From positions 28,386 through 92,385 of the forward strand of contig CAUJDN010000054.1 of assembly GCA_963169195.1 (NCBI GenBank): 64,000 nt of DNA, in the 5' to 3' direction. The notes below the pieces were generated by a model. That model saw nothing but the letters and a program-made list of their open reading frames with translations. It was not told where the DNA came from and ran no database searches. The number at the start of each line of letters is the position of its first letter. The stretch's first letter is position 1. Origin of the DNA: Acidobacteriota bacterium. GTDB lineage: Bacteria; Acidobacteriota; Vicinamibacteria; Vicinamibacterales; UBA2999. Positions 60,071-61,332 of this stretch are shown piece by piece. A program made the translations under genes and the position numbers.

Positions 60071-60205
60071 GCACGGGGGTTCGAAGCACGGGGGTTCGAA
60101 GCACGGGGGTTCGAAGCACGGGGGTTCGAAGCACGGGGGTTCGAAGCACGGGGGTTCGAAGCACGGAGGTTCGAAGCACGGAGGTTCGAAGCCAACGGGT
60201 TCAAG
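60071..60205 (+). repeat. 15-bp tandem repeat array A: GCACGG(G/A)GGTTCGAA, 8 full units + 1 degenerate
   Basis: The first base is the nucleotide after the TAG stop (60068-60070). Six GGGGG units, two GGAGG units, then gccaacgggttcaag. Confidence 0.95.
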
Positions 60206-60262
60206 GCCCGGACGTGCGGCGGGCGCAGGCCCACCACACGACCGTCGGCCGGAGTTGCGCCA

Positions 60263-60983
60263 TCAGCCGATGCCACGACGTTGCGGCTGCCACGCCACGC
60301 TGTGTGGCGGCATCACGTGGACGGCGAACACGAGCAGCGGCAGGAGAATCGATACTCCCGCCTCGCGGAGCCTGAGCCACGTGTGGCACGCCGGCACGGC
60401 CACGGCTACGGCAAGGGCCTCGTTCTTGGGCCAGGCCGCGAGGCGGAGCGCGGCACCCGCGAGAGCCAGCGTTCCCGCCCCCGGCTGGTCGTCTCGCGCC
60501 AGCAGTGCCACGCCAAGGATCAGGAAGAAGGCCACCGGGACGTCGGCCATCTGCAGCGCGCCCCGGCGCACGAACTCCGGGGCGAGCACGAGGTTCAGGC
60601 CGAGCACGGCGATGCGCGCGCCGCGACGTTCGTAGAGCGACGACGCGACGACCAGCGCCGTCCCGGCCGTGAAGGCAAGGGTGAGCGAGATGGGGACCAC
60701 CGCGCTCGCGCCGGGCTCTGAGATCCAGCCACGCGCGACCCTGGCGGGCAGCAGCAGCGGGTCGTCAGGGTGCGACCAGGCGAGTCTCCGGGGCAAAGGC
60801 GTTGGTCCAGGTCAGCGTGGGCCTGGCGAGGAACCGGGCCCGCAGGTTCCAGATGGCCCACGCGTCCCAGCCTCCCATCAGCGTCGCGACGGTCCGTTCC
60901 CACGCCGCCAGGGCCGCCGCGCCGTTCGGGTCGGGTGACACGGCAATGTAGACGACCGATGCCGATGGCGGGCTCTCCGGCAC
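60263..60983 (-). pseudogene. frameshifted remnant of a polytopic membrane protein (GT-C/ArnT-like C-terminal part, tentative)
   Basis: Two minus-strand ORFs in different frames join sensibly: ..GGWDAWAIWNLRARFLARPTLTWTNAFAPE (60765-60983), then a frame change to LAWSHPDDPLLLPARVARGW..., followed by 4-5 TM segments (60263-60796). A TM-like piece (LLVAIVAGLLTA) lies further upstream in a third frame (about 61050-61110). There is no intact N-terminal half. Confidence 0.45.
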
Positions 60984-61137
60984 GGCCGCAGCACAGGCCG
61001 CCGAAAGCGCCGTCGTCCTGTCCCGCGGTACCGCCGGCCCGCGCGCGATTGACCACGCGAGGATGCCGTCAACAGACCGGCCACGATCGCCACGAGCAGT
61101 CCCTCGCGCAACGATCCCTGCGACGCCGGCGCCGTTG

Positions 61138-61332
61138 CTCGAACCCCCGTGCCTCGAACCTCCGTGCTTCGAACCTCCGCGCTTCGAACCTCCGTGCTTC
61201 GAACCTCCGCGCTTCGAACCTCCGTGCTTCGAACCCCCGTGCTTCGAACCCCCGTGCTTCGAACCCCCGTGCTTCGAACCCCCGTGCTTCGAACCTCCGT
61301 GCTTCGAACCCCCGTGCTTCGAACCCCCGTGC
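61138..61332 (-). repeat. 15-bp tandem repeat array B: 13 units, exact reverse complement of array A (TTCGAACC(C/T)CCG(T/C)GC on + strand)
   Basis: 13 contiguous units counted. The array ends 2 nt from the TAG (61335-61337, minus strand) of the 328-aa membrane protein gene. It carries the same GGGGG/GGAGG unit variants as array A, plus two GCGCGG units not seen in array A. Confidence 0.95.

What the first reader, a model, noticed from the sequence alone, without database searches (positions are those of the whole stretch)
60071..61332. Two inverted arrays of a 15-bp tandem repeat start at the TAG stops of convergent genes and bracket a 0.93-kb decayed segment
Array A (60071-60205; 8 full units plus 1 degenerate unit of GCACGG(G/A)GGTTCGAA) begins on the nucleotide after the TAG of the plus-strand TLC/HEAT gene. 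Array B (61138-61332; 13 units) is its exact reverse complement and ends 2 nt from the TAG of the minus-strand 328-aa membrane protein gene. Each array therefore lies in the same sense orientation, immediately 3' of a stop codon. Both carry the same two unit variants (GGGGG and GGAGG), which points to exchange or concerted evolution between them. Together they make an inverted repeat of more than 130 bp around a segment that holds only a frameshifted gene remnant. They have no spacers, so they are not CRISPR, and there is no transposase. Possible roles are a bidirectional 3'-end/terminator module, a substrate for inversion or deletion, or a protein-binding array. Because 15 bp equals 5 codons, all frames stay open, which produces the artefactual VLRTP/ASNPR/FEPPC pentapeptide ORFs in the track.
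Basis: seen in the sequence. Interest (0 to 1): 0.65.

Follow-up and report, generated by a model that had tools for sequence, protein, structure and literature searches.

The report
Stop-codon-anchored 15-nt interspersed minisatellite pair
The two inverted repeat arrays are real, but they are two separate copies of a repeat family scattered through the genomes of a group of soil Acidobacteria, each starting at the stop codon of a gene and changing length between strains, not the two ends of one mobile or invertible element.

Summary
Array A is 60071-60190 (8 units plus a degenerate ninth to 60205). Array B is 61138-61332 (13 units, minus strand). They lie 0 and 2 nt after the TAG stops of convergent genes. 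The unit TTC-R-AA-GCACG-N-R-GG (15-16 nt) forms arrays at 11 or more loci in one Vicinamibacterales genome assembled from a metagenome (MAG), and in about 70 loci overall. Where a gene adjoins the array 5' end, 30 of 36 are same-strand genes ending there. Their stop is TAG in 30 of 39 cases against 32% background (p=1.5e-8), and it often sits inside the first unit. Near-identical strains carry 8 or 13 units in A and 13, 15 or 17 in B. An array-free relative has the same gene order, including an intact gene pair between the two sites. The arrays therefore arose later in two spacers, and the gene pair then decayed. No inversion, target-site duplication or transposase was found. The best reading is a MIRU/REP-like interspersed minisatellite family that changes length by slippage. 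The conserved core and the strand bias leave a 3'-end function possible but unproven.

The parts
57227..60070 (+). TLC/HEAT transporter-like gene (947 aa) whose TAG stop (60068-60070) touches the first unit of array A
   Evidence: ORF. Pfam HEAT_2 1.1e-22 and TLC 2.2e-12. Array-free orthologs (L032, L092) end with a TAA stop (ATG ATC TAA in L032, apparently at the same codon by eye).
60071..60190 (+). Array A: 8 units (6x GCACGGGGGTTCGAA, 2x GCACGGAGGTTCGAA), G-rich strand in sense with the TLC/HEAT gene
   Evidence: The 99.9%-identical strain L001 has 13 units here.
60191..60205 (+). Degenerate ninth unit GCCAACGGGTTCAAG, the decayed 3' edge of array A
   Evidence: identical in L001 and L052.
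60206..61137 (-). Remnant of a two-gene unit (123-aa protein plus 446-aa GT39/PMT_2-like membrane protein). Surviving pieces are about 60915-60983, 60786-60923, 60497-60784 and 60207-60389, with a frameshift near 60785
   Evidence: tblastn of the intact L028 proteins. Homologs of the 446-aa protein carry PF13231/PF02366. The pair is intact without arrays in L092. It decayed independently in L031.
61138..61332 (-). Array B: 13 units on the minus strand, in sense with the 328-aa gene. Variants, read from the stop codon: GGGGG and GGAGG units, then GCGCGG (2 units) and TTCGAG (2 units) at the distal end
   Evidence: L001 has 15 units and L052 has 17 units with near-identical flanks.
61333..61345 (-). 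Junction GCA GGA TAG AG: the last two codons, the TAG stop (61335-61337) and 2 nt. It looks like a degenerate first unit (GCACGG-TAG-G...)
   Evidence: Orthologs L028, L031 and L089 read GCA CGG TAG / GGA CGG TAG GTTCAAA at the same place. Array-free relatives end ...IRP with TGA or TAG.
61335..62321 (-). 328-aa membrane protein gene whose TAG stop lies 2 nt from array B
   Evidence: Thousands of orthologs in Vicinamibacterales-like assemblies. No Pfam hit.

Best explanation
Arrays A and B are two separate members of a lineage-specific family of interspersed minisatellites in Vicinamibacterales (Acidobacteriota).

The family:
- The unit is TTC-R-AA-GCACG-N-R-GG, usually 15 nt and sometimes 16.
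- Arrays occupy the untranslated DNA next to gene 3' ends, and also sit beside tRNA genes.
- The G-rich strand is the sense strand of the gene that the array 5' end touches.
- The first unit touches or overlaps the stop codon.

Shown here:
- The family is dispersed over many loci.
- The orientation rule and the stop-codon rule hold across the family.
- The arrays at this locus are inherited at the same two positions in several species.
- They arose in two pre-existing short spacers flanking an intact gene pair.
- They differ in unit number between 99.9%-identical strains.

Inferred:
- Length changes come from slipped-strand mispairing or unequal exchange, with turnover strongest at the stop-proximal end.
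- Arrays spread until they meet constrained codons, and the stop codon is then recruited from the unit. TAG fits the free N-R-G triplet, or arises from RAA|G to RTAG. TAA arises from RAA. TGA is available on the other strand from TTCAAA.
- The G-rich-sense orientation survives because it is the one tolerated inside transcription units.

On this reading the inverted arrangement in the window is a by-product of two convergent 3' ends, each carrying its own sense-oriented array, after the GT39-like gene pair between them decayed. No dedicated function is required. How the unit first reaches a new locus is unknown.
For: Dispersal:
- The same unit dimers occur on 11 contigs of one MAG (SJ725), in other Vicinamibacterales MAGs and in 54 metagenome loci.
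- There are none in viral contigs.

Orientation and stop codon:
- 30 of 36 genes within 150 nt of an array 5' end are same-strand genes ending there; their stops are TAG 25, TAA 3, TGA 2.
- A second count gives TAG in 30 of 39 against 32% background, binomial p=1.5e-8.
- The junction phases are TAG|GCACG, TA|GCACG and GCACG-TAG-GTTC.
- In about 5 loci the convergent gene's TGA is the reverse complement of TTCA in the last unit, so the array fills the whole spacer.

Length variation:
- Window A8/B13, L001 A13/B15, L052 B17, with 99.9% identity between window and L001 outside the arrays and identical junctions in L052.
- Short-read and long contigs break at the array.

History of the locus:
- L092 has the same gene order with no arrays and unique spacers of 41 and 25 nt.
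- L028 has 3-4 units around the intact genes.
- L031 and the window have long arrays and independently decayed genes.

No coding constraint: 66 of 377 units are 16 nt.

Polarity: the 5' third of arrays is more homogeneous than the 3' third, 1.43 against 1.90 mismatches, p=0.03.

Genome context: the window holds 13 tandem arrays with TRF score of 50 or more, against 1.4 in shuffles, mostly intergenic and from other short-unit families. In L087 a different 8-nt repeat fills the same spacer and encodes the C-terminal tail and the TAG.
Against: - Twelve of 15 unit positions are the same at all loci and in species whose pseudogene DNA is only about 69-73% identical. The loci found by protein homology rather than by pattern (L028, L031, L089) show this too.
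- Substitution is strand-asymmetric: TTCAAA 125, TTCGAA 115, TTTGAA 0.
- Both points suggest sequence-specific constraint, meaning a function or a recognition step in propagation, which a purely neutral model does not explain.
- The model offers no mechanism for seeding the same 15-mer at new loci.
- Some arrays begin exactly after a native stop (TLC gene: TAA in relatives, TAG here), which looks targeted rather than the result of array spread.
- Copy numbers come from metagenome assemblies and could be partly collapsed.
- The gene calls behind the statistics are a GC3 heuristic (filtering ORFs on G+C content at third codon positions), and about half the arrays had no callable neighbour.
Confidence: 0.5

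Rival explanations
1. Functional 3'-end module. The arrays are maintained because the repeat is recognised in RNA or DNA. Options:
- A protein-binding platform in the 3' untranslated region (3' UTR).
- A run of Shine-Dalgarno-like GGAGG/GGGGG sites.
- A strand-specific barrier: G-rich RNA for its own gene, and C-rich, unstructured, Rho-loading RNA for transcripts entering from the convergent gene.
- Where two arrays face each other, a long RNA hairpin that acts as a bidirectional terminator or stabiliser.
For: - The core is conserved and only three positions vary freely, at all loci and in all species.
- There is a strand-asymmetric substitution pattern.
- Sense-orientation bias is 30 to 6, and arrays beside tRNA genes are also in sense.
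- Arrays persisted at this locus while the neighbouring gene pair decayed twice.
- Inverted pairs recur between convergent genes in L014, L026, L072 and L075, and also in L083 and the orthologous L028/L031.
- A transcript crossing both window arrays would pair 127 of 135 positions of A with B.
- The sense strand is 44-46% G and 20-21% C, so the antisense RNA is C-rich.
Against: - No hairpin-plus-T-tract terminator is predicted and there is no Rfam match.
- Most arrays are single.
- The UUCGAA palindrome that gives single arrays some fold (z -3 and -7.6) is absent in the equally common TTCAAA units.
- Unit number swings from 3 to 17 at one locus, and array-free relatives manage with 25-41 nt spacers or overlapping genes.
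- In the window the arms are 932 nt apart only because a gene decayed.
- No expression or binding data are available.
Confidence: 0.3
2. Mobile element. The two arrays are the terminal inverted repeats of a foldback or MITE-like transposon or cassette that carried the GT39-like gene pair and inserted between the convergent genes.
For: - The outermost bases read TCTA|GGCACGGGGGTTCGAA...TTCGAACCCCCGTGCC|TCTA, a 4-bp direct repeat.
- Three outgroups (L032, L087, L088) lack both the arrays and the gene pair.
- Cargo-free inverted pairs exist (L014, L072, L075).
Against: - L092, L093 and L094 have the same gene pair in the same place with no arrays, so the gene pair is ancestral and the arrays came later.
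- Most arrays are single.
- In L026 the two arms carry different unit variants.
- There is no transposase in the window or next to the arrays.
- Arrays sit at orthologous positions in different genomes, for example L016/L064, L017/L024, L022/L068 and L021/L033.
- There are no hits in viral contigs.
- The TCTA match is explained by the palindromic CTAG stop context.
Confidence: 0.04
3. Recombination switch. The 130-bp-plus inverted repeats drive inversion of the 0.93-kb segment.
For: The arms are 135 and 195 bp long and 88-92% complementary, which is enough for homologous recombination.
Against: - The remnant has the same orientation relative to the 328-aa gene in the window, L001, L031 and in the intact L028.
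- The segment holds only a dead gene and no promoter-like site.
- The inverted arrangement is explained by the family's orientation rule.
Confidence: 0.03
4. Assembly artefact, or coding repeat. Either the arrays are mis-assembled, or they encode pentapeptide repeats or read-through extensions after TAG.
For: - Assemblers break at the arrays.
- A 15-nt period keeps all six frames open.
Against: - Four independent kinds of assembly share the same junctions and unit order.
- The reading frame relative to the stop differs between loci, and 16-nt units are common (66 of 377), so no frame is conserved.
Confidence: 0.02

Closest known systems
MIRU (mycobacterial interspersed repetitive units; MIRU-VNTR loci)
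   Same: - Tandem units of one sequence family scattered over many intergenic loci of a genome.
- Copy number varies between strains. PMC3914561 describes MIRUs as tandem repeats at 41 loci, 12 of them hypervariable.
- From my own knowledge of Supply et al. 1997: MIRUs are oriented with the adjacent genes and overlap their stop and start codons.
   Different: - MIRU units are 46-101 bp, not 15-16 nt.
- There is no sequence relation, and the phylum is different.
- Here the stop is TAG in about 80% of cases and arrays favour convergent 3' ends, not only operon-internal spacers.
- Inverted pairs are not a MIRU feature.
GTAG-tagged REP/BIME elements (e.g. SMAG of Stenotrophomonas)
   Same: - Abundant intergenic repeats close to or overlapping gene ends.
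[quoted passage not shown]
- They occur as head-to-head dimers and as tandem clusters.
- Many junctions here read GTAG|GCACGG.
   Different: - A REP unit is a 20-40 bp palindromic stem-loop, whereas this unit is not palindromic.
- No palindromic singleton (GCACGGRGGTTCGAACCYCCGTGC) was found in the window or loci.
- Association with a RAYT tyrosine transposase could not be tested.
BrickBuilt minisatellite/MITE of Porphyromonas gingivalis (PMC4596501)
   Same: A spacer-less minisatellite of a short unit (23 nt), present about 19 times per genome and always intergenic.
   Different: - BrickBuilt has leader and tail subunits with small inverted-repeat ends, and lies 49-591 nt from coding sequences.
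- Here there is no leader or tail, and the arrays touch the stop codon.
CRISPR arrays
   Same: Short direct repeats in series.
   Different: There are no spacers, the unit is 15 nt, there are no cas genes, and the arrays are dispersed over many loci. This is not CRISPR.

Membership tests
Interspersed minisatellite (MIRU-like VNTR family) | Head-to-tail units of one sequence family without spacers | tested here: met
   TRF period 15, 94-99% matches; 21 units in register.
Interspersed minisatellite (MIRU-like VNTR family) | Same unit present at many separate loci of one genome | tested here: met
   11 contigs of MAG SJ725, plus 54 metagenome loci.
Interspersed minisatellite (MIRU-like VNTR family) | Copy number differs between closely related strains | tested here: met
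   A 8 or 13 units and B 13, 15 or 17 units with 99.9%-identical flanks. Caveat: these are metagenome assemblies.
Interspersed minisatellite (MIRU-like VNTR family) | Intergenic, oriented with adjacent genes, overlapping their stop codons | tested here: met
   30 sense against 6 antisense; stop within -9 to +31 nt of the array; TAG in 30 of 39.
MIRU proper (Mycobacterium) | Unit of 46-101 bp homologous to the MIRU consensus | tested here: not met
   The unit is 15-16 nt. It works like a MIRU but is not a member of that family.
REP/BIME (GTAG superfamily) | Unit is an imperfect palindrome forming a stem-loop, with a GTAG tail | tested here: not met
   The unit has only the TTCGAA hexamer palindrome, which is lost in TTCAAA units. 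No palindromic singletons were found. GTAG is frequent but not constant at junctions.
REP/BIME (GTAG superfamily) | Associated RAYT (Y1 transposase) gene flanked by the repeats | not testable with these tools
   Whole genomes of the MAGs could not be scanned. There is no such gene in the window near the arrays.
MITE / foldback transposon | Terminal inverted repeats with target-site duplication, and presence/absence as one block | tested here: not met
   L092 has the inner genes without arrays. Most arrays are single. The TCTA repeat is attributable to the CTAG stop context.
CRISPR | Repeats separated by unique spacers of similar length | tested here: not met
   Start-to-start spacing is exactly 15 nt.
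Intrinsic terminator | GC-rich hairpin followed by a T tract just after the gene | tested here: not met
   0 sites in 59800-61600.
Rho-utilisation-like region | C-rich, G-poor, unstructured RNA of about 80 nt or more | tested here: inconclusive
   The antisense transcript of each array would be about 45% C and 20% G. Whether Rho acts here cannot be tested.

The most novel reading that the evidence does not exclude
The repeat is a previously undescribed, sequence-specific 3'-end element of Vicinamibacterales genes. It would be a strand-specific tandem platform anchored at TAG stop codons and recognised through its invariant GGTTCRAAGCACG core by a protein, the ribosome or a termination factor. 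It would control 3'-end formation, mRNA stability or protection from convergent transcription, and copy-number variation would tune that effect. Alternatively, it is written next to TAG stops by an unknown targeting mechanism.
Probability: 0.2. Interest if true: 0.75.

Novelty: new variant of a known kind. Interest (0 to 1): 0.45.

Why it matters
- It documents, in a poorly studied and mostly uncultured soil lineage, a family of hypervariable interspersed minisatellites that touch stop codons.
- The family breaks short-read and even long-contig assemblies, creates spurious ORFs in all six frames, and rewrites the last codons and the stop codon of genes.
- The arrays could serve as strain-typing (VNTR) markers for Vicinamibacterales.
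- If the conserved core reflects recognition by a cellular factor, the family would give a handle on how 3' ends are formed in Acidobacteria, where canonical terminators appear scarce (no canonical terminator was predicted in the 1.8 kb scanned here).
- It also warns annotators that 'inverted repeats around a dead gene' need not be a mobile element.

Tried and rejected
- Cassette or foldback transposon with array inverted repeats. This was considered seriously because of the TCTA direct repeat and because L032, L087 and L088 lack the inner genes. It was rejected when L092-L094 showed the inner gene pair in place without arrays.
- REP-like palindromic progenitor (GCACGGRGGTTCGAACCYCCGTGC). There were 0 hits in the window, and only array-internal hits in the loci.
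- Structured RNA. There is no Rfam family. Single arrays fold only through UUCGAA palindromes, which half of all units lack.
- Coding or read-through pentapeptides. The frames are inconsistent and 16-nt units are common.
- G-quadruplex. GGGGG is replaced by GGAGG, GAAGG or GCAGG in about half of the units.
- tRNA T-arm origin (GGTTCGAA). A few arrays flank tRNA-Cys and tRNA-Ala genes, but there is no stem complement in the unit. This is left as a curiosity.
- Phage origin. There were 0 hits in viral contigs.
- Looked for loci where the window lacks an array that relatives have. None of the fetched loci is orthologous to other parts of the window.
- Literature. No paper links Vicinamibacter with tandem repeats, and general searches gave only the REP, MIRU and BrickBuilt parallels.
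- Pfam on the inner ORFs gave nothing directly. Their GT39/PMT_2 nature came from homologs.
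Full report
**1. Observation**

The region was read directly.
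- Tandem Repeats Finder (TRF) reports two 15-nt arrays: 60071-60192 (8.1 copies, 99% matches, score 230) and 61139-61332 (12.9 copies, 94%, score 325).
- A search for GCACGGRGGTTCGAA with up to 2 mismatches finds 8 units on the plus strand (60071-60190) and 13 on the minus strand (61138-61332). That is 21 matches against 0.25 expected from shuffles, and there are none elsewhere in the 64 kb.
- Array A begins on the base after TAG 60068-60070 of the + gene 57227-60070 (Pfam TLC and HEAT_2). It ends in a degenerate unit at 60191-60205.
- Array B ends 2 nt from the TAG (61335-61337 on the minus strand) of the 328-aa gene 61335-62321.
- The arms are 88-92% complementary depending on register. B has two private variants, GCGCGG and TTCGAG, so "exact reverse complement" holds for the unit and not for the arrays.
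- The pentapeptide open reading frames (ORFs) listed are read-through artefacts.
- There is no hairpin-plus-T-tract terminator, no sigma-70-like promoter and no Rfam family.

**2. The arrays are real and hypervariable**

- An exact look-up of the 328-aa protein places the locus in Vicinamibacterales assemblies.
- L001 (GCA_020853475.1) is 99.9% identical to the window outside the arrays but has 13 units in A and 15 in B. L052, a WGS metagenome contig, has 17 units in B. The unit-variant order is consistent with internal gains and losses of 1-5 units.
- A 378-kb ENA contig (L002) ends inside array B, and eight Logan contigs all stop 27 nt into it.
- The arrays are therefore genuine, they break assemblies, and they differ in length between strains. 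The caveat is that metagenome assemblers can collapse repeats.

**3. A dispersed family**

- Unit dimers occur on 11 different contigs of one metagenome-assembled genome (MAG), Acidobacteria bacterium SJ725. They also occur in a Vicinamibacterales MAG and in two MAGs labelled Bifidobacteriaceae.
- A relaxed core pattern found 54 metagenome loci and no viral contigs.
- Unit lengths, measured TTC to TTC, are 15 nt (296 units), 16 nt (66) and 14 nt (9), which excludes a codon constraint.
- The unit is TTC-R-AA-GCACG-N-R-GG. Only those three positions vary freely, and the commonest middle variants everywhere are GGGG (98) and GAGG (92).
- Sharing of these two variants by A and B is therefore not evidence for exchange between them.

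**4. Relation to genes**

Genes were called with a GC3 heuristic, which filters ORFs on G+C content at third codon positions.
- The feature within 150 nt of an array 5' end is a same-strand gene ending there in 30 cases and an opposite-strand gene in 6. The stops of the 30 are TAG 25, TAA 3 and TGA 2.
- An independent count gives TAG in 30 of 39 array-adjacent stops against 84 of 259 (32%) for other genes in the same sequences (p=1.5e-8).
- The junctions fall in a few phases: TAG|GCACG, TA|GCACG with the G shared, and GCACG-TAG-GTTC, where TAG occupies the free N-R-G triplet.
- Downstream neighbours within 150 nt are convergent genes in 15 cases and co-directional genes in 5. In about five loci the convergent gene's TGA is the reverse complement of TTCA in the last unit, so the array is the entire spacer.
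- Arrays also flank tRNA-Cys and precede tRNA-Ala, in sense orientation.
- Inverted pairs between convergent genes, each arm in sense with its own gene, recur in L014 (arms abutting; the whole spacer folds at -142 kcal/mol), L026, L072 and L075; further inverted pairs occur in L083 and in the orthologous loci L028 and L031.
- In L026 the arms carry different unit variants.

**5. History of this locus**

- Orthologs of the 328-aa protein were traced to their contigs.
- L092-L094 (75% protein identity) have the order M1 peptidase, 329-aa gene, 125-aa gene, 457-aa gene, then the convergent TLC/HEAT gene. Their spacers are unique, 41 nt and 25 nt, and carry no arrays. The 329-aa gene ends ATT CGG CCA TAG and the TLC gene ends with TAA.
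- L028 (86%) has the same intact genes with 3 units after the 328-aa gene and 4 units between the 446-aa gene and the TLC gene.
- L031 (86%) has 8 and 14 units and a decayed middle gene. L089 (89%) starts an array at GGA CGG TAG GTTCAAA.
- The window keeps only fragments of the 123-aa and 446-aa proteins, with a frameshift. L031 keeps different fragments, so the decay was independent.
- The 446-aa protein is GT39/PMT_2-like, judged from its homologs.
- L032, L087 and L088 lack the gene pair. At the same place L032 has a 36-bp hairpin spacer, L087 has a different 8-nt tandem repeat that encodes the protein's PKPKA tail and carries TAG-bearing units, and L088 has overlapping genes.
- The arrays therefore arose in two existing spacers of an ancestor of the 84%-and-above clade, expanded, and outlived the genes between them.
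- The remnant has the same orientation everywhere, so there is no sign of inversion.

**6. How it most likely works**

Shown:
- This is a dispersed tandem family with strand-specific placement at gene 3' ends.
- The stop codon touches or lies inside the first unit.
- Length changes rapidly, and the arrays are inherited vertically at this locus.

Inferred:
- Arrays change length by slippage or unequal exchange. The stop-proximal third is more homogeneous than the distal third (1.43 against 1.90 mismatches, p=0.03).
- Arrays extend until they meet constrained codons. In the array-bearing clade the last codons of the 328-aa gene read GCA CGG TAG, which is a unit, where relatives have ...IRP.
- TAG predominates because it is the stop that fits the unit's free positions on the sense strand. 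TGA is the stop available on the other strand.
- I give this neutral or selfish interspersed-minisatellite reading about 0.5.

The main rival, at about 0.3, is a real 3'-end function. Points in its favour:
- The core is invariant in species whose pseudogene DNA is only about 69-73% identical.
- Substitution is strand-asymmetric: TTCAAA 125, TTCGAA 115, TTTGAA 0.
- There is a sense bias.
- The antisense RNA would be C-rich.
- A transcript spanning both window arrays would form a duplex of about 127 bp.

None of this could be tested functionally here.

**7. Comparison with known systems**

- The family behaves like MIRU-VNTR loci: interspersed tandem units at 41 loci, variable between strains (PMC3914561). 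Gene-oriented placement and overlap with stop codons are from my own knowledge of Supply et al. 1997.
- It also resembles GTAG-tagged REPs, whose termini often supply the TAG stop (PMC3733652).
- It resembles the BrickBuilt minisatellite of P. gingivalis (PMC4596501).
- It is not a member of any of these. The unit is 15-16 nt and not palindromic, has no leader or tail, and no inverted-repeat/target-duplication block behaviour.
- It is not CRISPR, because there are no spacers.
- No paper in the library links Vicinamibacterales with such repeats.

**8. Verdict**

The feature is a new variant of a known kind, an interspersed intergenic minisatellite. It is notable for its tight, TAG-biased anchoring to stop codons, and for a genome background unusually rich in short intergenic tandem repeats (13 arrays in 64 kb against 1.4 expected). 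Interest is 0.45. The probability that it is a sequence-specific 3'-end element or a stop-targeted insertion system is about 0.2.

Noticed in passing
window 2522-2561, 8487-8522, 20076-20140, 35249-35318, 41301-41343, 42643-42688, 45352-45396, 48427-48457: The window is about 9-fold enriched in short tandem repeats: 13 arrays with TRF score of 50 or more, against 1.4 in shuffles. Most are intergenic and belong to a few recurring unit families (GGTGCGGAC-like 10-mers at four sites; GAACCCCA / GACCCAG / CGGGTTCT 7-8-mers; GGGTCTTG). Several start 3-30 nt after a stop codon. The same units recur in relatives, for example ACCCCAAG after the L063 array and CGGGAGT at L028 3947-3971.
   Followed up: partly
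window 18883-18914: The 7-nt repeat ACTCCCG x4.6 (minus strand) lies inside a long coding frame that looks like an acyl-CoA synthetase. It encodes PPDSRLPTPDSR. The same 7-mer family is intergenic in L028.
   Followed up: partly
L087 5010-5070: In a 72%-identical relative, the spacer between the same two convergent genes is filled by a different 8-nt tandem repeat (AGCCCAAA). It encodes the protein's C-terminal PKPKA and contains unit variants with TAG and TGA.
   Followed up: partly
L012, L013, L017, L020, L023 (CAZJBN01, CAZUGF01) and L087: Two MAGs labelled 'uncultured Bifidobacteriaceae bacterium' carry about 65-71% GC contigs with this repeat family. One of their loci (L087) is syntenic with the window at 76% nucleotide identity. 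The label is probably a binning or taxonomy error, and the contigs look Vicinamibacterales-like.
   Followed up: partly
L023 14-416; L020 5308-5641; L018 532-711: tRNA-Cys is flanked on both sides by arrays of the family in the same orientation as the tRNA, and tRNA-Ala is preceded by one. The unit's GGTTCGAA resembles a tRNA T-loop, but there is no matching stem.
   Followed up: no
window 12420-12650 and 35170-35245: Low-GC intergenic patches rich in CAATCG / CGATTG / ATTG motifs in both orientations, unlike the rest of the 71% GC window. They could be another repeat family or promoter regions.
   Followed up: no
window 53475-57179 (-) and 57227-60070 (+): Two divergent paralogous TLC/MFS + HEAT-repeat genes. 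The longer one also matches cNMP_binding. The pair is conserved in all relatives examined.
   Followed up: no
L014 3541-4010 (minus strand): The gene ending at the TAG next to the inverted arm of the L014 palindrome reads like a phage-tail-tube / contractile-injection-system tube protein (FNFRVEIDG...). This is my reading of the translation and was not tested against Pfam.
   Followed up: no
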